A stretch of DNA of 64,000 nt from Candidatus Moraniibacteriota bacterium (lineage in GTDB: Bacteria > Patescibacteriota > Minisyncoccia > Moranbacterales > GWC2-37-73), in the NCBI GenBank assembly GCA_003507445.1, contig DNVR01000019.1, positions 1,367-65,366 of the forward strand, in the 5' to 3' direction. Each line of letters opens with the position of its first letter. Positions within the stretch are counted from its first letter, which is position 1. This document shows, one piece after another, positions 2,836 through 63,512 of this stretch. The notes below the pieces were generated by a model. The model had not been told where the DNA came from, ran no database searches, and worked only from the letters and a program-made list of their open reading frames with translations. A program made the translations under genes and the position numbers.

Positions 2836-3711
2836 ATGAGCCAGACAGCACTTAACGCATTGTTCCAGAACGCAGCAGCAGACGGAGGACTTTCTCCGGC
2901 CGCCATGCAGGCACTCAATGTGAACGATATCGGAGCTCAAATCCAGGCAGGTCTCGGCGTTTCCGTCGACGACGTCCTGGCATCGGAAGTGGTCATCGTG
3001 ACCATGATGCCCGATGATTCCGGATCCATTCGTTTCGCCGGCAACACGCAGTTCGTGCGCGACGGCCACAACGCCGTCATTGATGCACTGAAAGATTCGA
3101 AACAGAAAAACGGCATCCTTATGCACACGCGTTATCTCAACGGTAACGTTCTGTTCCCCTACGTGAACATCGACCAGGCCGTGCGGATGGATTCCAGTAA
3201 CTACAACCCGAACCTCGGAACCCCGCTCTTCGACCAGACTCTCGTTTTGCTCGGCACCGTGCTGGCAAAAACGCAGGAGTTTGCGGACAACGGCATGCAT
3301 TGCCGGAGCGTTACCTGCCTGGTTACTGACGGCGACGACGAGCATTCGACTCGTGCCGATGCAAGGATGGTTCGCACCGTCGTCAGCGACATGCTGCAGA
3401 CGGAAAACCACATAATAGCCGGCCTCGGCATCGACGATGCCCCGGAAGAGTGCAGAAGCTGCGGTTGCAAAACGCTGCGCGAAACCGAGCTGACGGTCAA
3501 TACCTGTCCCAAGTGCGGAGCGGGTTTCCGTCGCACCAATTTCGAGAAAGTTTTTCTGGAGATGGGCCTGCTCAAAGAGTGGATCCTGACCCCGAAGAAC
3601 ACCCCGTCCGACATACGCAAAGCCTTCCAGATGTTCTCTCAGAGCGCAGTCCGCGCATCCCAGGGAGCGGCAAGCTTTTCGCAGACGGCCGTCGGCGGAT
3701 TCGGAAATTGA
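2836..3711 (+). CDS. VWA (von Willebrand factor A) domain protein with a MIDAS motif and a C-terminal zinc ribbon; possibly TerY-like.
   Basis: MIDAS motif DDSGS (VVIVTMMPDDSGSIRF). VWA core ...VTCLVTDGDDEHS. C-terminal CRSCGC...CPKCG. RBS AAGGAGAG upstream. Confidence 0.6.
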   Translation: MSQTALNALFQNAAADGGLSPAAMQALNVNDIGAQIQAGLGVSVDDVLASEVVIVTMMPDDSGSIRFAGNTQFVRDGHNAVIDALKDSKQKNGILMHTRYLNGNVLFPYVNIDQAVRMDSSNYNPNLGTPLFDQTLVLLGTVLAKTQEFADNGMHCRSVTCLVTDGDDEHSTRADARMVRTVVSDMLQTENHIIAGLGIDDAPEECRSCGCKTLRETELTVNTCPKCGAGFRRTNFEKVFLEMGLLKEWILTPKNTPSDIRKAFQMFSQSAVRASQGAASFSQTAVGGFGN

Positions 3712-10460: not shown

Positions 10461-11069
10461 ATGGAAAAAGAAAAAGAATTGAACATATACGCTGAAAAAA
10501 CTGATGAACAACTCGTCGCGCTAACGCTCAAAGACGAGAATTTTTATGCAATTTTGATTGAGCGATATGAAGAAAAACTTACGAGGTATATTTTGAGAAT
10601 TTCCGGAGGATCGAAAGAAGATGTCGAAGACACTTTGCAAGACGTCTTTATTAGCGCATATAAAAATCTTAATGATTTTGATCCTGATTTGAAATTTTCT
10701 TCTTGGATTTATCGCATCGCTCATAATAAAGTCATTAGTCATTTCAGAAAAATAACAGCGCGTCCAAAAACAGTGACATATGAAGGAGATGGGCAACTGC
10801 TTAATATTTTGGCTAGCGATCTTGATATTGCCAGAGATTTGGAAAGGAAATATACAGGAGAAGAAGTCAGGAGCATTCTTGAGGAGTTGGATGAAAAATA
10901 TAGGGAAGTTTTGGTTCTTAAGTTTTTGGAGGAAAAGGATTACAAGGAAATTTCTGATATTTTGGAAAAACCAATGGGAACAGTGGCAACACTTATAAAC
11001 AGGGCTAAAAAACAATTCAAAGAAAAATCACTGAGACGGGAAGCACAAACTCTAAAACCTAGAACCTAA
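10461..11069 (+). CDS. RNA polymerase sigma factor, sigma-70/ECF-like (regions 2 and 4).
   Basis: Region 2 DVFISAYKNLNDFDPDLKFSSWIYRIAHNKVISHFRK; region 4 YKEISDILEKPMGTVATLINRAKKQF. The C-terminal TLKPRT is encoded by an (AACCTAR)n heptamer array. Confidence 0.8.
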   Translation: MEKEKELNIYAEKTDEQLVALTLKDENFYAILIERYEEKLTRYILRISGGSKEDVEDTLQDVFISAYKNLNDFDPDLKFSSWIYRIAHNKVISHFRKITARPKTVTYEGDGQLLNILASDLDIARDLERKYTGEEVRSILEELDEKYREVLVLKFLEEKDYKEISDILEKPMGTVATLINRAKKQFKEKSLRREAQTLKPRT

Positions 11070-11086
11070 TACCTAAAACCTAAAAA
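11052..11086. repeat. (AACCTAR)n heptamer array, overlapping the sigma gene stop.
   Basis: CTAAAACCTAGAACCTAATACCTAAAACCTAA. Confidence 0.8.
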
Positions 11087-15499: not shown

Positions 15500-16552
15500 A
15501 TGGCTTTACAAATAGGAATTGTGGGGTTGCCAAATGTGGGGAAATCAACCCTTTTTAAGGCATTAACGGAAAATCCAGTAGAAATTAGCAATTATCCATT
15601 TTGCACTATTGAACCTAATGTTGGTGTGGTAAAGGTGCCAGATGAGCGCTTGGATAAACTGTCGATAATGTCAGAAACAGAAAAAATCGTGCCAGCAGTG
15701 GTGGAATTTGTGGATATCGCTGGAATTGTGAAGGGGGCATCTGAGGGAGAAGGTTTGGGCAACAAATTTTTGGCTAATATTAGGGAAGTTGACGCAATTG
15801 CTCAAGTTGTGCGAGTTTTTGAAAATTCTAATATTACTCACGTGCATAACAAAGTTGACCCTCTTGAAGACATCGAAATCATCAATACTGAGCTTATTTT
15901 GGCAGATCTTGAAACCGTGACAAAAAGAATGGAAAAATTGGCCAAAGATGCACGTGGAAATGATAAAGAGGCTCAATTCAAGCTTATCATAGCGGAAAAA
16001 ATTAAAAATACCTTAGAAAAAGGTCTTTTGGCTAATATGACAGACATTGATTTTGAGGACCAAAACACCAAAATTGCCGTGCGAGAGCTGCAATTGCTCA
16101 CAATGAAGCCATTTTTGTATGTCTATAATGTTTCTGATGTTAATGAAAAATTGCCGGATATTTTGGAAAACAGAAGGCACGTTAAGTTGGACATTAAAAT
16201 TGAGGAAGAATTGATTGAGATGAGTGAGGAGGAAAAGGCTGAAATGGAGCTAACTTCCCACATTAATGATTTGATTGTTGAGGCGTACGACTTGTTGGGG
16301 CTGCAAACATTTATCACTACTGGAAAAATTGAAACAAGAGCTTGGACAATAAAAAAAGGTGCTACGGCGCCCGAAGCAGGCGCTGCAATTCACACTGATT
16401 TTCAAGAAAAATTCATTCGAGCCGATGTTATTATGTGGGACAAACTACTCGAAATCGGTTCCTGGGGTAAGGCTAAAGAATTAGGCGCGGTTAAAACTGT
16501 TGGCAGGGATTATGTGATGACAGATGGGGAGGTAGTAGAATTTAAAGTTTAA
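15500..16552 (+). CDS. ychF: Ribosome-binding ATPase YchF (Obg-family GTPase).
   Basis: G1 motif [14 protein letters not shown] and a C-terminal TGS domain. Confidence 0.9.
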
Positions 16553-16572
16553 TCGCCAGCTGGCGATTAAAC
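16553..16572. terminator. Palindromic terminator AATCGCCAGCTGGCGATT.
   Basis: Perfect hairpin immediately after the ychF stop. The same CGCCAGCTGGCG palindrome recurs at 28812-28827. Confidence 0.55.
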
Positions 16573-16777
16573 TTTAAATTAATTTCCAAATCCCAAATCC
16601 CAATTTCCAAACAATAAGTTTCTTACTTTCTTAAAAGTGCTAGCGCAAGCTAGTCTTTTTGTATTTTTGGTATATGTTTTATGTTCCATGCTTTATGACT
16701 CTTTACTGTTTTATGTTATATGATTTTGTGATATAATTGTGATAAGAATGAAACTGCTAAATATCTTATAAAATATA

Positions 16778-17814: not shown

Positions 17815-18186
17815 ATGGCAAAGTTATTGATTATTGAAGATGATCTTGTTCTGCAAAAAGCCCTTAGTGAATATCTCACCTCTGAAGGTTTTGAGGTTGA
17901 ATGTGCAGAAGATGGGGAAATTGGCGCCAAGTTGGCCTTAACTGGAAAACCAGATTTGATTTTGCTGGATATTGTTTTGCCAAAAAAAGATGGATATGCA
18001 GTGCTTGCAGAAGTGCGAGCAGATGAAAATTCAAAGAATATCCCTATAGTGCTGCTAACAAATCTCGGAAGTATTTCTGATGTTGAAAAGGCTTTGGAAT
18101 TGGGCGCAACGACTTATCTTGTAAAAGCTGATTATAAATTGGAAGAAGTTACTGCCAAAGTTAAAGAACTCTTGCATATCAAATAG
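17815..18186 (+). CDS. Single-domain response regulator (CheY-like receiver only).
   Basis: LLIIEDD...DLILLDIVLPKKDG...K motif set; no output domain. Confidence 0.8.
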   Translation: MAKLLIIEDDLVLQKALSEYLTSEGFEVECAEDGEIGAKLALTGKPDLILLDIVLPKKDGYAVLAEVRADENSKNIPIVLLTNLGSISDVEKALELGATTYLVKADYKLEEVTAKVKELLHIK

Positions 18187-18244
18187 CATAGGCTATAAAC
18201 GTACAAAAGGCGTACAAAAATACAAAAATACAAAAATACAAAAA

Positions 18245-18287
18245 CCCCAGTTAAATAGTGAGGGTTACCGTAATTTAACGGGGTAAA
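18245..18287. repeat. Short palindromic element of the same family (CCCCAGTTAAATAG...TAATTTAACGGGGTAAAC), upstream of pilB.
   Basis: Shares both arms with the long copies. Confidence 0.65.
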
Positions 18288-20059: not shown

Positions 20060-20185
20060 TTTAAGGCAATGTCAAATTAAAAATTAAAAATATCAAATCC
20101 AGGACGATGCCCGTATGATTTCTTGATATTTAACATTTGACATTCATTTGAAATTTGGAATTTAAAATTTGAAATTTTTTAGATT

Positions 20186-28234: not shown

Positions 28235-28302
28235 ATATTTAAATAAAAAAACTTCTTTTTGTTTAGAAATTAGAAATTAAAAATTAAAAATTTCTCAACA
28301 TG

Positions 28303-30246: not shown

Positions 30247-30273
30247 AATTTGGAATATAACAAGAGTAAAGGC

Positions 30274-30390
30274 AGGTTTTAGGTTCTAGGTATTAGTCTC
30301 TAGAATTTTTTATTAATTAAATAAAAAAGAAGACAACCTGTCTTCTTTTTTATATAAACCTAGCACCTAGAACCTAATACCTGGAACCTG
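30274..30390. repeat. Two inverted (AACCTAR)n heptamer arrays flanking the hsp20 terminator.
   Basis: AGGTTTTAGGTTCTAGGTATTAG ... CCTAGCACCTAGAACCTAATACCTGGAACCTG. Confidence 0.75.
30323..30352. terminator. Bidirectional terminator hairpin, serving hsp20 on the minus strand.
   Basis: AAGAAGACA-acc-TGTCTTCTT flanked by A and T runs. Confidence 0.6.
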
Positions 30391-31654: not shown

Positions 31655-34267
31655 TTATTGCAAAGATGCTAAATGCTTTTTGAGCTCAGCTAATTCAACT
31701 TGTTTTTTGGCTAGAGTTTCTTTTTGTTGAGAAATCACTTGCTCAGGAGCCTTGGACACAAATTCCTTGTTGCCAAGTCTTGCTGCTGAGCCAGCGATAA
31801 ATTTTTCAAGGTTAGCTATTTCTTTTTCAGCTTTGTTTTTTTCTTTTTCAACATCAACAAGACCATCAAGCGGAATTTTTATGATACATTCTCCCACAAC
31901 TCTCTGAATGAAATCGCCAATAAGTATCTCGTTAAATTTGATAACAGAAACTCCTGCTGATTTTTTTATAAAATCTGCGTTGTTTGATATTACTTTTTTG
32001 GATAATTCAGAAGTTGTTTCTACCCAAAGTTCTATTTTTTTGGCGGATTCTATGTTTTTTTCTTTTCTGACATTTCGTATTGTTTTGTTGAGTGATAATA
32101 CAAATGGAAAATATGAAGAGGTTTTTGCCTGCTTGTTTTCTTCGTAAGCTGGCCATTCAGAAATCATCAGCAATTCCTTCTCTCCTGCCAAAGTCCAAAT
32201 GTGTTCCGTCACGAATGGAATAAAAGGATGCCACAATTTGAGCAATTTGTCTAAAACATATCCCAGCATCTTGTCGTTTTTTTCTATTTTTTGAGCTTCA
32301 ATATATCCATCTGCAAATGAATTCCAAGTGAAAGTTTTTAATAAATCAGCTGCAACAGAGATTTGTTTGCTTTCAAATAGTTGATTTGTTTTTCCGATTA
32401 ATTCGTTTAAGCTGTCAGTAATCCAGCGGTCTGCTTCAGAGTTTATATCTTCCTTCGAAATTTCTTCAACTAATTTGAAATTTTCTTGTGAGAGGCAATA
32501 GCGCGAAATGTTCCAAAGTTTGTTGGCAAAATTTCTGAAGGTTTCAATTTTTTCTTCGTATAGACGTGAGTTTTGACCAGGAGCAGAGTCCATAATAAGG
32601 CTCATACGCAATGCATCGGCGCCAAATTTTTCAATAACAGTGAGTGGATCAATCCCATTTCCTCTTGATTTGGAAAATTTGTGTCCATCTTTGTCCAGCA
32701 CTAGTCCAGTGAAAAATAAATTTTTAAAAGGTATTTTTCCTGTCGTATAAAGACTCATCATTATCATTCGCGATGACCAGAAGAATAGAAGATCGCGTCC
32801 CATAACCATTGTGTTTGTTGGATAAAAAGTTTCAAAATCTTTTTCTTTTGATTTTAGTGTAGTGTAAGCCCATTGCCCAGAGGTAAACCAAGTATCAAAA
32901 GTATTTTCATCTCGAGTTAATTTTTTTCCTTGGCAATGAGGACAAGTAGTTGGTTTTTCAAGTGAAACAATATATTTTTCTTGACCGCAATTTTCGCAAT
33001 ACCAAACAGGGAATTGTGGTCCCCACCAAATTTGGCGAGAAATGCACCAGTCGCGCATATTATCAAACCAGTCGATGAGAATTTTTTGAAAATTATTTGG
33101 AAAAATTTCAATTTCATTTTTTTTGATAGCTTCAATCGCTTTCTTTTTTAATGAAAAGTTTTTAGCATCAACATTAATAAACCACTGACTTGAAGTCAAA
33201 GGTTCAATGATGGTTTTGCAACGTTCGCAAATTGAAACGCTGTGCGTCATTTCCTCAATTTTTTCTAGTAAGTTTAATTTTTCTAAATCTTTGACAATTT
33301 CTTCTCTTGCTTCATGTGTGGTAAGTCCTGCATATTTTCCGCCAAGTTCTGTGATCAGTGATTTTTCATCAATAATTTGAATTTCATCTAGTTTGTGATC
33401 CTTGCCGATTTCCCAGTCGAGAGGATCGTGTGAGGGTGTGATTTTTACAGCCCCAGTTCCAAAAGATAAATCAATGCGCTTGTCTGCAATGATTGGGATG
33501 ATTGTGTTTTGCAATGGCAGGACAACATTTTTTCCAACTAATTTTAAATAGCGTTTGTCTTTGGGGTTAACTGCCACTGCAGTGTCTCCCAACATTGTTT
33601 CAGGACGCGTGGTTGCAACTGTAATAAATTCGTTTGAATTTTCAATTGGATATTTGATAAAATATAATTTCCCAGGAGTTTCCTTGTGCAGAACTTCCAC
33701 ATCAGAAAGAGCAGTGCCGCAGCGCGGGCACCAATTGATGATTCTTTTACCTTTATAAATCAAACCGTCTTCGTGCATTTTCACAAAAGTTTCAAGTGCG
33801 GTTTTGAGCACATCAGGGTCAAGCGTGAATTTTTCTCGTGACCAATCAGCAGAGATGCCAATCTTTTTTTCTTGGCTACGCATATAGTTGGCGCGATCAA
33901 TACAAAAGGCATAAGTTTTTTTGTAAAAATCTTCTCGTCCAATTTCTTGGCGAGAAAGTCCAAGTTCGGCTTGCAATTTTTTTTCAAAAACAACTTGAGT
34001 TTGAATCCCAGCATGATCTTTCCCAGGCAAAAGTAAAGTTTTTTTGCCGTTCATTCGAGCGTAGCGACCAAAAATATCCATCACAGTGTATCCACTGGCA
34101 TGCCCGATGTGCAGTTCGCCGTTAGCATTTGGTGGTGGAAGAATGTTGCAATAGTTCCCACTCGTATTTTTCAGATTTTCCGGCGCAAAAAAACCGCTCT
34201 TTTCCCAGCGCGCATAAATTTCATTCTCAACTTTTTGCGGTTCATATATTTTTGGAAGTTCTTTCAT
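31655..34267 (-). CDS. valS: Valine--tRNA ligase.
   Basis: HIGH motif PNANGELHIGHA, KMSKS motif KFSKSRGN, C-terminal coiled coil. Confidence 0.95.
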   Translation of the reverse strand: MKELPKIYEPQKVENEIYARWEKSGFFAPENLKNTSGNYCNILPPPNANGELHIGHASGYTVMDIFGRYARMNGKKTLLLPGKDHAGIQTQVVFEKKLQAELGLSRQEIGREDFYKKTYAFCIDRANYMRSQEKKIGISADWSREKFTLDPDVLKTALETFVKMHEDGLIYKGKRIINWCPRCGTALSDVEVLHKETPGKLYFIKYPIENSNEFITVATTRPETMLGDTAVAVNPKDKRYLKLVGKNVVLPLQNTIIPIIADKRIDLSFGTGAVKITPSHDPLDWEIGKDHKLDEIQIIDEKSLITELGGKYAGLTTHEAREEIVKDLEKLNLLEKIEEMTHSVSICERCKTIIEPLTSSQWFINVDAKNFSLKKKAIEAIKKNEIEIFPNNFQKILIDWFDNMRDWCISRQIWWGPQFPVWYCENCGQEKYIVSLEKPTTCPHCQGKKLTRDENTFDTWFTSGQWAYTTLKSKEKDFETFYPTNTMVMGRDLLFFWSSRMIMMSLYTTGKIPFKNLFFTGLVLDKDGHKFSKSRGNGIDPLTVIEKFGADALRMSLIMDSAPGQNSRLYEEKIETFRNFANKLWNISRYCLSQENFKLVEEISKEDINSEADRWITDSLNELIGKTNQLFESKQISVAADLLKTFTWNSFADGYIEAQKIEKNDKMLGYVLDKLLKLWHPFIPFVTEHIWTLAGEKELLMISEWPAYEENKQAKTSSYFPFVLSLNKTIRNVRKEKNIESAKKIELWVETTSELSKKVISNNADFIKKSAGVSVIKFNEILIGDFIQRVVGECIIKIPLDGLVDVEKEKNKAEKEIANLEKFIAGSAARLGNKEFVSKAPEQVISQQKETLAKKQVELAELKKHLASLQ

Positions 34268-34376: not shown

Positions 34377-34700
34377 TTAGGGTTGCGTTAATTCCTCAAT
34401 TATCGCATCTCTTAGCTCCTGCGAAAGTGAGGACTTTTGAATTTGCAACACAAATAATTCAATGTCTTTTCCGAGAGTCTCCGTTATGAATGTTGACAGG
34501 AGAATTTGAGGTTGCAAATCTTTGCTGTCGGAAAATATTTCTCCGAGCTGTTGAATGTAATGGCCTGTAGCATTCATTGCTACATCTTTCTTAAATATGC
34601 CAGCACATTCATTGATGGATCTGATTAGTGAGGGATCTCCATTAGTAACCACATAGACTTGATAAAGCATTCTTGCAATCGTGCTCATTTTAGGTCTCAT
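34377..34700 (-). CDS. Hypothetical protein, 107 aa.
   Basis: ORF only. Confidence 0.3.
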   Translation of the reverse strand: MRPKMSTIARMLYQVYVVTNGDPSLIRSINECAGIFKKDVAMNATGHYIQQLGEIFSDSKDLQPQILLSTFITETLGKDIELFVLQIQKSSLSQELRDAIIEELTQP

Positions 34701-34760: not shown

Positions 34761-35927
34761 CTATTTCATTTTCAAGTTGGCAGCTGGCTGAATTGTTTTC
34801 CAACCATCAAGAGCCTTTTTCTTTTGCACTTCTGACATTTTTTCCCAGCGAAAAGATGTTGCAGCTGCAATCATGGCAGCATTGTCGCCAGTCAGATTGG
34901 TATTTGGTATTTGGTATTTGGTATTTGGCAGAGATTGTTGAATTGCGATTTGCAATTGCTCGCGAAGTTCGGTGTTGGCGCTGACGCCTCCGGCCAGTAA
35001 AATTGTTTTAGGATTGTAAAGCTCAGCAGCTTTCAAGGTTTTTGCAATAAGAACATCTATACAGGCTTGTTGAAATTCGTGGCAAACTTCGGCAATATAT
35101 TTTTTATTTTTCAATAAATCAGGATTCTTTTTCGTTTCATATAAAACAGCAGTCTTGAGCCCAGAAAAAGAAAAATTAAAATTTTTCTTGTGCAGCATCG
35201 GACGAGGGAATTTTATTTCATATTTTGAATTACTTTCAACTTTCAACTTTCGACTTTTAACTTGTGTCGCACATCGTGCGACAGCTGGACCACCTGGGTA
35301 ACCTATATTTAAAATGCGGGCGACCTTGTCAAAAGCTTCTCCAACTGCATCATCCACGGTTTGTCCGATTATTTCATATTGCAAATGATCTTTCATTAAA
35401 ATAAGTTGTGTATGACCGCCCGATACGACCAAGCATAAAATTGGGAAATTAATTTTTGGTGATTTTCGATTTTCGATTTTCGATTTTCGATTGGTTATTT
35501 TTGGATTTTCAATCGCCAATCGTAATTCGTCATTTGACAATTGTTTTATGAAATTGGCGTAGATGTGTCCCTCAATATGATGAATTCCAATTAGGGGCTT
35601 TTCCCAGAGATAGGAGAGGGTTTTGGCATAGTTAACCCCCACTAGAAGTGCAGGAATAAGCCCAGGACCACTTGTGACACTGATTGCATCCAACTGGCTT
35701 GGCGTTATTTGCGCCTCTTCCAGAGCCATTTTCAGAAGCTTGGGGAAGTTTTTGAGGTGTTCTCTGGCTGCAAGATTTGGCACAACTCCGCCCCATTTGG
35801 CATGTAATTTTACTTGAGATGAAACTTGGTTTGTAAGAACCCTGAGCCCCTTTTTTGAACTGCACAAAATAGCGATAGCTGTTTCATCGCAGGAGGTTTC
35901 TATGGAAAGTATTAGGGTATTTGACAT
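34761..35927 (-). CDS. tsaD: tRNA N6-adenosine threonylcarbamoyltransferase TsaD (Kae1 family), carrying three in-frame heptamer-repeat insertions.
   Basis: LSIETSCDETAIAI, VSGGHTQL and DNAAMIA match TsaD. Insert peptides NPKITNRKSKIENRKSPKIN, KSRKLKVESNSKYEIK and LPNTKYQIPNTN are encoded by 7-nt tandem repeats. Start taken at MSNTLIL; the ORF track offers an earlier Met at 35960. Confidence 0.85.
   Translation of the reverse strand: MSNTLILSIETSCDETAIAILCSSKKGLRVLTNQVSSQVKLHAKWGGVVPNLAAREHLKNFPKLLKMALEEAQITPSQLDAISVTSGPGLIPALLVGVNYAKTLSYLWEKPLIGIHHIEGHIYANFIKQLSNDELRLAIENPKITNRKSKIENRKSPKINFPILCLVVSGGHTQLILMKDHLQYEIIGQTVDDAVGEAFDKVARILNIGYPGGPAVARCATQVKSRKLKVESNSKYEIKFPRPMLHKKNFNFSFSGLKTAVLYETKKNPDLLKNKKYIAEVCHEFQQACIDVLIAKTLKAAELYNPKTILLAGGVSANTELREQLQIAIQQSLPNTKYQIPNTNLTGDNAAMIAAATSFRWEKMSEVQKKKALDGWKTIQPAANLKMK
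34898..34922. repeat. Heptamer tandem repeat (TTGGTAT)n inside the tsaD CDS.
   Basis: 3.5 copies, in frame. Confidence 0.9.
35233..35263. repeat. Heptamer tandem repeat (CTTTCAA/CTTTCGA)n inside the tsaD CDS.
   Basis: About 4 copies, in frame. Confidence 0.85.
35461..35492. repeat. Heptamer tandem repeat (GATTTTC)n inside the tsaD CDS.
   Basis: 4.5 perfect copies, in frame overall. Confidence 0.9.
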
Positions 35928-44099: not shown

Positions 44100-44215
44100 T
44101 CAAATTTCCAATATCAAATTACTAATTTCTAATCAATGTCCAATTTCCCAATTCCCAAATTTTTGACATTTTGATATTAGAATTTTATTGGAAATTAGAT
44201 ATTAGAAATTAGAAA
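44100..44215. repeat. AT-rich heptamer-based inverted repeat cluster of the (AAATTAG / TTTCCAA) family.
   Basis: ...CCAATATCAAATTACTAATTTCTAAT...ATTAGATATTAGAAATTAGAAATTGAG. Related arrays at 16583-16612, 20061-20180, 28266-28291 and 61236-61330. Confidence 0.6.
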
Positions 44216-44270
44216 TTGAGAAACATATTGAATCTCTCAAATATTATTTTTATTGATGGCTTAAAGTATT

Positions 44271-60439: not shown

Positions 60440-61231
60440 GTGGTTATGAATAGACGAAATATTATAATTATCAGTGTTTTGTGCTTATTGGCTGTCCCTA
60501 GCCTTTATTTTGGCCTGAAAAAAGTGCAAGAATACAAAAAAACAGTTCAAATAAGCGTGACTGATTTGCAGGAAAACAATGACAATCAACAAATTGAAGA
60601 GGAAGAGAAATCAATTGAAAAAGCTGTTAATAATGACAATGCAGAAGTTGTTGAAAATCAAGAAAAAGAAATTGCAGCGCCAAAAGTTCCAGAAAAAGTA
60701 ATAGAAGAAAAGAGGGTTGAACCAAAAAAAACAAATCCGCCAGCTGAAGAAGAAACAAAAGTAGAAGCAGGAAAAATTGTCGACAAATTAATTTCGTGGG
60801 GCTTTACAAAATCTTCCGGAAGAACAATAGATACCGTTATTGTTCATTCATCTTATGATGCACTTGGAGACGACCCGTATAGTGTTTCTGGAATTATTGC
60901 TGAATACAAGCAATACAATGTTTCTGCGCACTATTTGATTGCGCGCGATGGCACCGCTTATCGTTTGGTAACGGATCAAAACATCGCTTGGCACGCAGGT
61001 GTTAGCAAAGTTCCGGATGGACGAACAAACGTAAATGATTTTTCAATTGGTATAGAGATGATCAACACAAAAGATGGGAAATATACTGATGATCAATATT
61101 CTGCATTGAATTCTTTGATTGCAACATTGAAGAAAAAATATAAAATAAAATATATTCTTGGCCACAATGAAATCGCCCCCGACAGAAAGACTGATCCGTG
61201 GGGAATTGATTGGAATAAAGTTAATCGATAA
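60440..61231 (+). CDS. N-acetylmuramoyl-L-alanine amidase (Amidase_2/PGRP family) with N-terminal anchor.
   Basis: AHYLIARDGT...AWHAG...NDFSIGIEMIN...ILGHNE. Confidence 0.75.
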   Translation: MVMNRRNIIIISVLCLLAVPSLYFGLKKVQEYKKTVQISVTDLQENNDNQQIEEEEKSIEKAVNNDNAEVVENQEKEIAAPKVPEKVIEEKRVEPKKTNPPAEEETKVEAGKIVDKLISWGFTKSSGRTIDTVIVHSSYDALGDDPYSVSGIIAEYKQYNVSAHYLIARDGTAYRLVTDQNIAWHAGVSKVPDGRTNVNDFSIGIEMINTKDGKYTDDQYSALNSLIATLKKKYKIKYILGHNEIAPDRKTDPWGIDWNKVNR

Positions 61232-61353
61232 TAAATTCCAAATTAAAAATTAAAAATTTCAAATAAATTCCAAATGATTAAATTTTAAAAATTGGGCATT
61301 GGAAATTTGGTATTCATTTGATATTTGTTATTTGGACTTTGAAATTAAATACT

Positions 61354-63342: not shown

Positions 63343-63483
63343 GTCGTGTTTCTCCTCTCAGGTTTATTTTGATGTAAAAAAGCAAGTGTTTTTATATTTG
63401 TGAGTTTAATCTAGCGGTAAACCTGTATTTAGTCAATGCTTATAGCGCTTGAAGGGATTTTTAGAAACTAAGAAGCATAAATC

Positions 63484-63512
63484 TAAAACCTAGAACCTAG
63501 AACCTAAAACCT
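63484..63512. repeat. (AACCTAR)n heptamer array upstream of purN.
   Basis: TAAAACCTAGAACCTAGAACCTAAAACCTG. Confidence 0.8.

What the first reader, a model, noticed from the sequence alone, without database searches (positions are those of the whole stretch)
34761..35927. Heptanucleotide tandem repeats are pervasive, including three in-frame arrays inserted into loops of the essential tsaD gene.
Seven-nt-period arrays occur at many intergenic sites. (AACCTAR)n is at 11052-11086, 30274-30296, 30358-30390 and 63484-63512. (CCAAATC)n is at 16583-16612. (AAATTAR)n is at 28266-28291, 44100-44215 and 61236-61330. An 8-nt (TACAAAAA)4 array is at 18213-18245. Three distinct heptamer arrays also lie inside the tsaD ORF: GATTTTC x4.5 at 35461-35492, CTTTCRA x4 at 35233-35263, and TTGGTAT x3.5 at 34898-34922. 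Each is arranged so the frame is preserved and encodes insert peptides (ITNRKSKIENRKSPKIN; KSRKLKVESNSKYEIK; LPNTKYQIPNTN) absent from canonical TsaD. One array also encodes the C-terminus of the sigma factor at 10461-11069. Seven is not a multiple of three, so expansion or contraction by one unit would frameshift tsaD. This resembles contingency loci, or a genome-specific invasive micro-repeat that has been domesticated into surface loops.
Basis: seen in the sequence. Interest (0 to 1): 0.6.

Follow-up and report, generated by a model that had tools for sequence, protein, structure and literature searches.

The report
Seven-base repeats built into tsaD
In this ultra-small (Moranbacteria/CPR) bacterium and dozens of its relatives, short tandem repeats of seven DNA letters are unusually common and form part of the coding sequence of the essential tRNA-modifying enzyme TsaD. 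This suggests that simple DNA "stutter" can build and keep remodelling pieces of a conserved protein; it is not an on/off switch.

Summary
The three heptamer arrays in tsaD (minus strand, 34761-35927) are real. Each is 32 nt, or 4.6 copies, and two are perfect. Period-7 arrays are enriched in the window: 16 found against 2.6 expected from shuffles.

The phenomenon is not specific to this genome.
- In 64 distinct Moranbacteria-like tsaD genes I found 156 period-7 arrays, and no more than 11 of any other period apart from 14.
- All of them lie in the same three or four variable sites.
- Density is 210 per 100 kb in tsaD, 8 in neighbouring coding DNA and 68 in intergenic DNA.
- Other Patescibacteria show a weaker version; non-CPR bacteria show none.

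Arrays 1 and 2 lie in poorly modelled loops that are hypervariable in length. Array 3 is not an insert. It encodes a fixed-length core segment, including a confidently modelled beta-strand.

At fixed-length positions, different species carry perfect arrays with different units, which indicates concerted evolution. One DNA module occurs at two sites in different reading frames.

The best explanation is lineage-biased slippage seeded by conserved codons and filtered for reading frame and absence of stop codons. Phase variation is not supported. This is a new variant of the known heptameric simple repeats. Why the unit is seven bases, and why tsaD is the hot spot, remain open.

The parts
34761..35927 (-). 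tsaD coding sequence (388 aa; t6A37 tRNA threonylcarbamoyltransferase)
   Evidence: Pfam PF00814 at E=5.8e-85. Solved TsaD structures at E about 1e-73. The AF2 model matches E. coli/Salmonella TsaD with target-normalised TM-score 0.88 and rmsd 2.2 A. Homologs start at MSNT..., the ATG at 35927.
35461..35492 (-). Array 1: sense-strand (GAAAATC)4.6, perfect; encodes residues about 146-156 (RKSKIENRKSP) in hypervariable site 1
   Evidence: TRF. pLDDT is below 50 over residues 131-156. The unit has no stop codon in any frame. Relatives carry (ATTGAAA)n at the same position, where the TGA frame is patched by TGC/TGT.
35457..35543 (-). Site 1 insert (residues about 129-157), between the HxxxH helix ...YANFI and strand FPILCLVVSGGHT; a run of about 12 heptamer-phased units, decayed upstream and perfect downstream
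   Evidence: Printing the sequence in heptamer register shows conserved AATTTC in both flanks, 105 nt (15 units) apart. The segment has no counterpart in solved TsaDs. It is 7-60 aa long in 64 relatives.
35232..35263 (-). Array 2: sense-strand (AAAGTTG)-type x4.6, 88% matches; encodes residues about 222-232 (VKSRKLKVESN) in hypervariable site 2
   Evidence: TRF. The one copy that would read TGA in frame is CGA instead. pLDDT is below 50 over residues 227-232. Site 2 is 17-65 aa long in relatives.
34897..34928 (-). Array 3: sense-strand (ATACCAA)4.6, perfect; encodes residues 334-344 (PNTKYQIPNTN), a fixed-length core segment rather than an insert
   Evidence: The segment is the same length in 63 of 64 relatives and includes invariant Y338 and P341. 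It is modelled as strand E337-339 with high pLDDT. Other species carry (CCAGATA), (CCTACCA) or (ATACATG) arrays at the same position.
11047..11085 (+). Intergenic/edge array (AAACCTA)5.4; supplies the last codons and the stop of sigma-factor ORF 10461-11069, and ends 3 nt before the next ORF
30273..30389 (-). Inverted pair of heptamer arrays, 30273-30303 and 30357-30389, enclosing a terminator-like hairpin at 30317-30357; lies between the HSP20 and VanW-like genes
   Evidence: Arms are 24 nt and 88% complementary. RNA fold gives -47.1 kcal/mol, z=-6.15. The same architecture is found at the orthologous spacer in L081, L082 and L085, with different units.
44103..44217 (+). Long imperfect hairpin whose arms are heptamer-like arrays in opposite orientation (AATTTCY / RGAAATT)
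   Evidence: Arms are 57 nt and 72% complementary. Fold z=-3.0. TRF rows at 44140-44162 and 44187-44223.
16586..16611 (+). Intergenic array (CCAAATC)3.7, directly after a perfect palindrome with 21-nt arms at 16539-16580
20146..20177 (+). Intergenic array (ATTTGAA)4.6, 9 nt upstream of ORF 20186
28263..28292 (+). Intergenic array (TTAGAAA/TTAAAAA)4.3
61233..61264 (+). Intergenic array (AAATTMM)4.6, starting 2 nt after ORF 60440-61231
63479..63512 (+). Intergenic array (AAACCTA)4.9

Best explanation
These are heptanucleotide simple-sequence repeats. I infer that they arise from a mutational bias toward 7-nt tandem duplication (slipped-strand or template-switch events). The bias is strong in Moranbacteria-like genomes and weaker across Patescibacteria.

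In intergenic DNA the arrays accumulate freely, often next to terminators and as inverted pairs. In coding DNA they survive only where three conditions hold: the net length change keeps the reading frame, the unit has no stop codon in any of the three frames (all three are read within 21 nt), and the protein tolerates the resulting 7-aa-periodic, Lys/Asn/Ile/Ser-rich peptide.

tsaD is the hot spot because conserved codons next to its variable segments are themselves 7-nt proto-repeats. ANF is GCC-AAT-TTC, NFP is AAT-TTC-CCA, and Y-Q-I-P is TAC-CAA-ATA-CCA. Once established, an array is repeatedly re-homogenised (concerted evolution). Species therefore carry perfect arrays with different units at the same position, even where length is fixed.

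The arrays now encode two flexible, positively charged loops and one core strand-and-turn of a working enzyme.

Shown: the enrichment, the positions, frame and stop filtering, unit turnover, and structural location.
Inferred: the slippage mechanism, the seeding, and homogenisation without length change.
For: - Period 7 is enriched in the window: 16 rows against 2.6 in shuffles.
- Relatives show 54.9 period-7 arrays per 100 kb, against 7.5 in mixed bacteria; other periods are unchanged.
- 64 distinct tsaD genes hold 156 period-7 and 27 period-14 arrays, and no more than 11 of any other period. All lie in 3 main variable sites plus 1 minor one, and none in the conserved core.
- Density per 100 kb is 210 in tsaD, 8.2 in other coding DNA and 68 in intergenic DNA.
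- Stop rule: all 35 perfect arrays have stop-free units, and all 32 arrays whose consensus unit contains a stop are imperfect. In window array 2 the copy in the TGA frame reads CGA.
- Unit turnover at fixed length, site 3: the window has a perfect (CCAAATA) array, L113 a perfect (CCAGATA) array, and L119 a mixture of the two along the array.
- Unit turnover at fixed length, site 2: at the 19-aa length there are perfect ATTCGAA, TTCAAAA, TTCAAAG and GTTCAAA arrays in different species.
- Seeds: the two flanking AATTTC motifs of site 1 are in heptamer register, and TACCAAATACCA comes from the conserved Y-x-I-P.
- In valS, relatives carry a (CAACTCA)4.6 array that adds exactly 7 aa (21 nt) relative to the window.
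- Heptameric simple repeats are a recognised over-represented class in some bacteria, and polymerase slippage has been proposed as the cause (Mrazek et al. 2007, as summarised in PMC4679880 and PMC4692102).
Against: - No direct evidence for slippage. No copy-number polymorphism was seen between near-identical contigs.
- Simple slippage by one unit shifts the frame. How arrays are born and homogenised at constant length in an essential gene is therefore unexplained.
- The perfect (AATTTCC)4.3 array is identical in three species with 32-52% four-fold divergence. The same module also occurs at two sites in different frames. This conservation at the DNA level could instead mean selection on the nucleic acid, or copy-and-paste.
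- Array lengths cluster at 29-34 nt, which a pure birth-and-death slippage model does not predict.
- The 'other coding' comparison covers only the neighbours of tsaD.
Confidence: 0.6

Rival explanations
1. The arrays are a functional nucleic-acid element kept by selection on the DNA or mRNA. Examples would be a platform for a protein that binds 7-nt-periodic single strands, a translational pausing tract, or an A-rich, ANN-codon-rich tract that couples tsaD translation to t6A status. On this view the peptides are a by-product.
For: - Conservation at the DNA level beyond synonymous saturation: (AATTTCC)4.3 is perfect in L081, L082 and L085 despite 32-52% four-fold divergence.
- The same module, with its ACAAATTC tail, is used in two reading frames at two sites.
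- tsaD is 25 times denser in arrays than neighbouring genes, and this holds across Patescibacteria.
- Arrays have 50% ANN codons against 33% elsewhere in tsaD, with 48% A and 7% G.
- Intergenic arrays form conserved hairpins in which the units change between species while the two arms stay complementary.
Against: - Units at one site differ widely between species, which argues against a sequence-specific reader.
- The three window arrays are not complementary to one another.
- A-richness and ANN-richness are expected for any low-complexity sense strand in an AT-rich genome.
- ANN-dependence would give positive rather than homeostatic feedback.
- No candidate binding partner was identified.
Confidence: 0.17
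2. The arrays are discrete miniature mobile or copy-paste elements of about 30-40 nt, inserted in frame into permissive sites, in the manner of Rickettsia palindromic elements.
For: - Array lengths have a sharp mode at 29-34 nt: 115 of 217 coding arrays.
- An identical module, (C)AATTTCC x4.3 plus ACAAATTC, preceded by GCG/GCGC, occurs at site 1 in some species and at site 2 in others, and at both in L128.
- Related units occur in intergenic arrays in the window (44103-44217, 61233-61264).
- A second class of true micro-insertions, GC-rich double hairpins, does occupy the same sites in relatives.
Against: - There is no common consensus across arrays: more than 40 distinct units.
- No terminal inverted repeats or target duplications were seen.
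- The AATTTCC module is almost confined to tsaD: 29 hits inside tsaD against 3 loose hits in about 400 kb outside it.
- Both sites are bounded by conserved F-P codons that can seed the same unit.
- Array 3 replaces sequence without changing length.
Confidence: 0.13
3. The arrays are a contingency locus: heptamer copy number changes at high frequency and switches tsaD on and off, or produces truncated or split forms, within populations.
For: - A one-unit change shifts the frame (arithmetic).
- One natural allele (L168) has a 16-nt deletion inside a site-2 array. It splits tsaD into two ORFs that overlap by ATGA, and otherwise differs from L171 by only 1 SNP.
- Two contigs (L169, L170) break at an array and continue into another gene.
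- Heptamer repeats do drive phase variation of the H. influenzae HMW adhesins (PMC8262952, listed).
Against: - The arrays have only about 4.6 units, and the gene is universal and housekeeping.
- None of 87 loci has HSPs in more than one reading frame.
- No array indels appear between contigs that differ by 0-4 SNPs.
- Cluster members keep their length.
- The arrays are stable over 5-14% core protein divergence.
- The L168 deletion is not a multiple of 7 and could be a rare variant or an assembly error.
Confidence: 0.05
4. The arrays are assembly or sequencing artefacts.
For: The window is presumably a metagenome assembly, and the reads were not available.
Against: - At 32 nt the arrays are shorter than typical assembly k-mers.
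- The ORF is intact, and the array-encoded segment includes conserved residues.
- Homologous arrays occur in more than 60 assemblies from NCBI, JGI and ENA projects.
Confidence: 0.02

Closest known systems
Over-represented heptameric simple sequence repeats of prokaryotes (long SSRs of Mrazek, Guo & Shah 2007, as summarised in PMC4679880 and PMC4692102)
   Same: Tandem 7-nt units that are over-represented relative to other unit lengths, are densest in intergenic DNA near gene ends, and have a proposed origin in polymerase slippage.
   Different: That class was described in large or GC-rich genomes (Burkholderia, Xanthomonas, cyanobacteria, actinobacteria) and as depleted in coding DNA. Here the genome is small and AT-rich (CPR), and the strongest arrays lie in frame inside an essential enzyme gene.
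GGGAATC / GGGGAYT heptamer repeats of Xanthomonas and Nostoc (Rehm et al. 2015, PMC4692102)
   Same: Heptamer arrays with a marked preference for about four units, some in inverted pairs, lying within about 50 bp of ORF starts or stops.
   Different: Those have one dominant G-rich unit, interpreted as forming G-quadruplexes, and are under-represented in ORFs. Here there are many A/T-rich units with 7% G that cannot form G4, yet the same preference for about 4.5 units.
TAACTGA direct repeats of marine Beggiatoaceae and cyanobacteria (MacGregor 2015, PMC4679880), and cyanobacterial STRR heptanucleotide repeats (Mazel et al. 1990; from my own knowledge)
   Same: Dispersed intergenic heptamer arrays of 2-6 copies just upstream of start codons. 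The paper also notes that reading through such arrays gives a 7-aa repeat and is limited by stop codons.
   Different: Those have a single favoured unit per genome and rarely lie inside ORFs. Concerted unit turnover inside a conserved enzyme was not described.
Phase-variable contingency loci with 7-bp repeats (H. influenzae hmw promoters; PMC8262952)
   Same: Heptamer unit; the copy number could in principle change expression.
   Different: Those have long, strain-variable tracts in promoters of surface adhesin genes. Here the tracts are short, stable and in a housekeeping ORF.
Rickettsia palindromic elements inserted in frame in protein genes (Ogata et al. 2000; from my own knowledge)
   Same: Non-coding-type repeated DNA that has become part of functional proteins at permissive surface sites.
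   Different: RPEs are dispersed palindromic elements of about 100-150 bp with a consensus sequence. The window's arrays are local tandem heptamers with no consensus. The GC-rich double hairpins seen in relatives resemble RPEs more closely.

Membership tests
Heptameric simple sequence repeats (long SSR class) | Head-to-tail tandem copies of a 7-nt unit, at least 3 copies | tested here: met
   TRF gives 16 period-7 rows in the window, with the three tsaD arrays at 4.6 copies each. The two perfect runs were confirmed independently.
Heptameric simple sequence repeats (long SSR class) | Over-represented relative to chance and to other unit lengths | tested here: met
   16 rows against 2.6 in shuffles. 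In relatives, 54.9 per 100 kb for period 7 against 4-12 per 100 kb for the neighbouring periods 6 and 8-14, and lower still for 4, 5 and 15.
Heptameric simple sequence repeats (long SSR class) | Predominantly intergenic, depleted in ORFs | tested here: inconclusive
   This holds outside tsaD: 8.2 per 100 kb in coding DNA against 68 in intergenic DNA. It is violated by tsaD itself, at 210 per 100 kb.
Heptameric simple sequence repeats (long SSR class) | One favoured unit sequence per genome (as in STRR, GGGAATC, TAACTGA) | tested here: not met
   There are more than 40 canonical units. The most common (AAAATTC, AAATTGG, AAATTTC) account for only a minority.
Contingency locus / SSR phase variation | Copy number differs between closely related strains or within populations | tested here: not met
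   L082, L083 and L084 are identical. L085, L086 and L087 differ by 2-4 SNPs with no array indel. Full-length members of 90% clusters keep their length. None of 87 loci has HSPs in more than one reading frame. The one exception is a 16-nt deletion in L168. No same-species contig of the window was found, so the window's own population was not tested.
Contingency locus / SSR phase variation | A tract long enough for high slippage rates, in a dispensable (usually surface or host-interaction) gene | tested here: not met
   The arrays have 4.6 units and the gene is the universal t6A enzyme TsaD. That the gene is essential comes from general knowledge of t6A and was not tested here.
TsaD/Kae1/Qri7 (the host gene) | Match to the family profile, the ASKHA fold, and the metal and nucleotide motifs (HxxxH; GDNAAM) | tested here: met
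   PF00814 at E=5.8e-85. HHIEGH and TGDNAAMIA are invariant in the alignment. The AF2 model has pTM 0.83 and matches 4ydu/3zet with target-normalised TM-score 0.88.
In-frame selfish palindromic/mobile micro-elements (RPE-like) | Dispersed copies that share a consensus and can form a hairpin | tested here: not met
   The tsaD arrays have different units and no self-complementarity. The AATTTCC module is nearly confined to tsaD. The GC-hairpin motif of relatives is absent from the window, apart from one loose hit at 3686-3698.

The most novel reading that the evidence does not exclude
Across Patescibacteria, heptanucleotide arrays are a self-renewing class of sequence that is actively homogenised at constant length. 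In tsaD they are kept by selection on the DNA or mRNA rather than on the peptide. One possibility is an A-rich, ANN-codon-rich tract that makes synthesis of the t6A enzyme sensitive to its own product. Another is a platform for a binding factor with 7-nt periodicity. On this reading, a universal enzyme carries a conserved nucleic-acid element, read in all three frames, that also supplies a core beta-strand.
Probability: 0.1. Interest if true: 0.8.

Novelty: new variant of a known kind. Interest (0 to 1): 0.55.

Why it matters
Repeats whose unit is not a multiple of three are expected to be excluded from coding DNA. Here they are the densest feature of an essential, universally conserved gene across a large uncultured radiation.

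This offers a concrete, testable source for the lineage-specific protein insertions typical of CPR bacteria. It is also a natural example of new protein segments, two loops and even a core strand, being written by a DNA repeat that is read in all three frames.

The data show concerted evolution of very short arrays at constant length, for which no simple mechanism exists. They also show that the preference for about four units reported for G-rich heptamers occurs in arrays that cannot form G-quadruplexes.

The practical consequence is modest. tsaD lengths and annotations in CPR genomes vary for this reason, and the arrays could serve as strain markers.

Tried and rejected
1. A search for the same species, to test copy-number polymorphism, failed. 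The protein search found at best 76-82% identity and the metagenome scan at best 75%, so the window's own population could not be examined.
I reused those loci as a control set, split into CPR-labelled and non-CPR loci.
3. The idea that coding arrays change only in 21-nt (3-unit) steps is only suggestive. Array lengths cluster at 29-34 nt with a few at 51-63 nt, and valS shows an exact 21-nt gain. But indels between close tsaD pairs are of mixed sizes, with 21 nt only one of several peaks. The excess of site-1 lengths that are multiples of 21 nt (18 of 64, p=0.003) disappears when each length is counted once.
4. A strict lag-7 window scan (at least 25 of 28 matches) found only the two perfect arrays and was too insensitive for a census.
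5. I looked for RNA pairing between the tsaD arrays and rejected it: the units are not complementary.
6. I considered a G-quadruplex explanation and rejected it: the arrays are 7% G.
7. ANN-codon enrichment (50% against 33%) is real but follows from the A-rich composition. I did not take it as evidence of regulation.
Full report
**Observation.** The minus-strand ORF 34761-35927 (ATG at 35927, 388 aa) is TsaD. It matches Pfam PF00814 at E=5.8e-85 and solved bacterial TsaDs at E of about 1e-73. Tandem Repeats Finder reports three period-7 arrays inside it, each 32 nt or 4.6 copies:
- 35461-35492, GATTTTC, 100% matches.
- 35232-35263, ACTTTCA, 88% matches.
- 34897-34928, TTGGTAT, 100% matches.

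An independent exact-run scan shows that the two perfect arrays are the only perfect heptamer arrays of at least 3 copies in the window. The window (37% GC) has 16 period-7 rows, against a mean of 2.6 and a maximum of 6 in 30 local dinucleotide-preserving shuffles. Periods 14 and 21 are also raised. The array at 11047-11085 provides the last codons and the stop of the sigma-factor ORF. In the window, arrays outside tsaD are essentially intergenic.

**Organism and relatives.** The best protein hits are Candidatus Moranbacteria / Parcubacteria TsaDs at 76-82% identity, with lengths from 351 to 490 aa. Contigs encoding three of them conserve the gene order sigma factor, tsaD, small ORF, valS, HSP20, VanW, PilN/M. 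A metagenome scan gave 80 more related loci, none from the same species.

**The phenomenon is lineage-wide and centred on tsaD.**
- Period-7 arrays occur at 54.9 per 100 kb in the Moranbacteria-like loci and at 7.5 per 100 kb in a mixed bacterial control set. Other periods are similar in the two sets.
- In 64 distinct tsaD coding sequences there are 156 period-7 and 27 period-14 rows, and no more than 11 rows for any other period. 57 of the 64 genes carry at least one array.
- Mapped onto the protein alignment, every array falls into one of three variable segments or a minor fourth. None falls in the conserved core.
- Density per 100 kb is 210 in tsaD, 8.2 in the other coding DNA of the same loci, and 68 in intergenic DNA.
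- Among the control loci, 8 of 21 labelled as CPR groups (Saccharibacteria, Nomurabacteria, Harrisonbacteria and others) have a heptamer array in tsaD at the same sites. That is 39 per 100 kb in tsaD and 11.8 in their flanks. The 58 non-CPR loci show no excess, at 3.6 and 4.9 per 100 kb.

**Where the arrays sit in the protein.**
- Array 1 (residues about 146-156) lies in site 1, the link between the HxxxH helix (...HIEGHIYANFI) and the strand FPILCLVVSGGHT. Solved TsaDs have no counterpart for residues 129-156. Relatives have 7-60 aa here. AlphaFold gives pLDDT below 50 for residues 131-156.
- Array 2 (residues about 222-232) lies in site 2, before FPRPM. The window has about 11 extra residues relative to solved structures. 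Relatives have 17-65 aa. pLDDT is below 50 for residues 227-232.
- Array 3 (residues 334-344, PNTKYQIPNTN) is not an insert. The segment has the same length in 63 of 64 relatives and contains invariant Y338 and P341. It is modelled as strand E337-339 at high confidence.
- The model as a whole superposes on E. coli and Salmonella TsaD with target-normalised TM-score 0.88 and rmsd 2.2 A.

**Signs of selection on the arrays.** Seven is congruent to 1 modulo 3, so three consecutive units are read in all three frames and give a 7-aa repeat. Accordingly, all 35 perfect arrays of at least 3.3 copies have units with no stop codon in any frame. All 32 arrays whose consensus unit contains a stop are imperfect.
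- In window array 2, the single copy that would read TGA in frame is CGA.
- In relatives, the (ATTGAAA)n array at the end of site 1 is patched with TGC or TGT, giving IENCELKIEN. The window has the stop-free variant (ATCGAAA)n in every copy.

**Concerted evolution.** At site 3, where length is fixed, the units differ between species:
- The window has four perfect CCAAATA units.
- L113 has four perfect CCAGATA units.
- L119 has two of each in a gradient along the array.
- L081, L082 and L111 carry CCTACCA; L109 and L122 carry ATACATG.

Among array-bearing species, unit identity within an array is 0.88 on average, while identity between orthologous units in different species is 0.71. At the minimal 19-aa form of site 2, different species carry perfect ATTCGAA, TTCAAAA, TTCAAAG or GTTCAAA arrays. 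All encode a [FY]-x-[ILV] pattern with 7-aa spacing.

The perfect (AATTTCC)4.3 array is identical in L081, L082 and L085, although their four-fold degenerate sites differ by 32-52%. The same module, with its ACAAATTC tail, occurs at site 1 in frame 2 (ISNFQFPISKQIQ) in about a dozen species. It occurs at site 2 in frame 0 (NFQFPISNFQTNS) in others, and at both sites in L128. The conservation is therefore at the DNA level, not the peptide level. The module is rare outside tsaD in the DNA I hold.

**Seeds.** Written in heptamer register, site 1 of the window is a continuous run of about 15 units, decayed upstream and perfect downstream. It is bounded by AATTTC in the conserved codons of ANF (GCC AAT TTC) and NFP (AAT TTC CCA), 105 nt apart. 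The conserved Y-Q-I-P of site 3 is TAC CAA ATA CCA, which is itself 1.7 copies of TACCAAA. Site 2 also ends in F-P codons. This gives a simple reason why the same units recur at these places and why tsaD is a hot spot. It remains an inference.

**Against phase variation.**
- No tsaD among 87 loci has HSPs in more than one reading frame.
- Contigs from different samples that differ by 0-4 SNPs have no array indels.
- Full-length members of ten 90%-identity clusters nearly always share one length.
- The arrays are unchanged between L081 and L082, which are 95% identical in the protein core.

The exceptions:
- L168 has a 16-nt deletion inside the (ACAAAAT)n array of site 2. It splits tsaD into two ORFs overlapping by ATGA, and otherwise differs from L171 by only 1 SNP.
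- L169 and L170 diverge at an (AATTTCC) array and continue into a FemAB gene.

These exceptions show that the arrays are fragile places or assembly break-points. They do not show that the arrays are switches.

**Comparison with known systems.** Heptameric simple repeats are a recognised over-represented class in some prokaryotes, with polymerase slippage proposed as the cause (Mrazek et al. 2007, as summarised in PMC4679880 and PMC4692102). Specific families include:
- the cyanobacterial STRRs;
- GGGAATC in Xanthomonas and Nostoc, with a preference for four units, inverted pairs and positions near ORF ends;
- TAACTGA in Beggiatoaceae.

All of these are described as mainly intergenic and as having one favoured unit. 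The present case shares the period, the copy number of about 4.5, the inverted pairs and the positions at gene ends. It differs in having many AT-rich units, in occurring in CPR genomes, and above all in its in-frame concentration in an essential enzyme with unit turnover. Full-text searches found no paper that links heptamer repeats with Patescibacteria. That library is incomplete.

**Verdict.** One of its three "inserts" is actually core sequence. The contingency-locus reading is not supported.

The best explanation, at about 0.6, is a lineage-biased process of 7-nt tandem duplication. It is seeded by conserved codons, filtered by reading frame, stop codons and structural tolerance, and followed by homogenisation. 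The main rivals are selection on the nucleic acid and copy-paste of a discrete module.

Three things are unexplained:
- why the unit is seven bases;
- how arrays are homogenised without changing length in an essential gene;
- why array lengths cluster at 29-34 nt.

Noticed in passing
window 30273-30389 (minus-strand transcript); orthologous spacers L081 15141-15235, L082 15588-15768, L085 15809-15941: The spacer between HSP20 and the VanW-like gene holds two heptamer arrays in inverted orientation, (AGGTTYT)n and (ARAACCT)n, which form an outer stem around a terminator-like hairpin. Fold z is -6.2 in the window and -11.1 in L081. The architecture is conserved in four species. L082 and L085 use different units (AGGAATT/AGGAGTT), yet the two arms stay complementary.
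   Followed up: partly
Its 57-nt arms, 72% complementary, are heptamer-like arrays in opposite orientation (fold z -3.0). The tract at 61233-61334 looks similar but folds no better than shuffles (z -0.8).
   Followed up: partly
L143 (TsaD residues 130 and 211), L146, L117, L165, L171, L142, L152; L085 valS near residue 30: Relatives carry a second kind of in-frame micro-insertion in the same TsaD sites and in ValRS. These are GC-rich tandem mini-hairpins such as CCGCCaaaGGCGG-aTCAGCCtctGGCTGA, encoding ...PKADQPLAEK.... Some are inserted in the middle of a heptamer array (L165, L171). They resemble REP/RPE-type selfish elements. The window lacks them, apart from one loose match at 3686-3698.
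   Followed up: partly
L168 795-2008; L169 209-934; L170 1132-1857 (same study as L171): These are natural tsaD variants broken at heptamer arrays. L168 has a 16-nt deletion that leaves two ORFs whose stop and start overlap (ATGA at the conserved PRPMM). L169 and L170 are two contigs in which tsaD ends at the (AATTTCC) array and a FemAB gene follows. I could not tell real rearrangement from assembly chimera.
   Followed up: partly
L081 12559-12590, L082 12990-13020, L085 13147-13178; corresponds to window valS (31655-34267) around residue 430: Relatives have a (CAACTCA)4.6 array in valS that adds exactly 7 aa. In L081 and L085 it replaces the first CxxC of the zinc knuckle that the window retains (CENCG...CPHC), and the second Cys pair is lost as well. 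In L082 the array sits between two retained cysteines.
   Followed up: partly
all period-7 arrays in window and L081-L167: Array lengths have a sharp mode at 29-34 nt (4.3-4.9 copies): 115 of 217 coding arrays. A preference for four units was reported for G-rich heptamers in Xanthomonas and Nostoc and attributed to G-quadruplex formation. These arrays are 7% G, so the preference may be a general property of heptamer repeats.
   Followed up: partly
window 18213-18244: A perfect (TACAAAAA)4 octamer array lies 27 nt after ORF 17815-18186. It is immediately followed by a GC-clamped hairpin (ccccagttaaat...atttaacgggg). It is the only strong array in the window that is not a heptamer.
   Followed up: no
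window 16539-16611: A perfect palindrome with 21-nt arms (16539-16580) overlaps the stop of ORF 15500-16552. It is followed within 6 nt by the (CCAAATC) array. This is another case of a heptamer array abutting a terminator-like structure.
   Followed up: no
window 34377-34700 (minus strand): A 107-aa ORF between tsaD and valS has no Pfam match. An ORF of similar size is present at the same position in L082 (107 aa) and L085 (122 aa), but no such ORF is called in L081.
   Followed up: no
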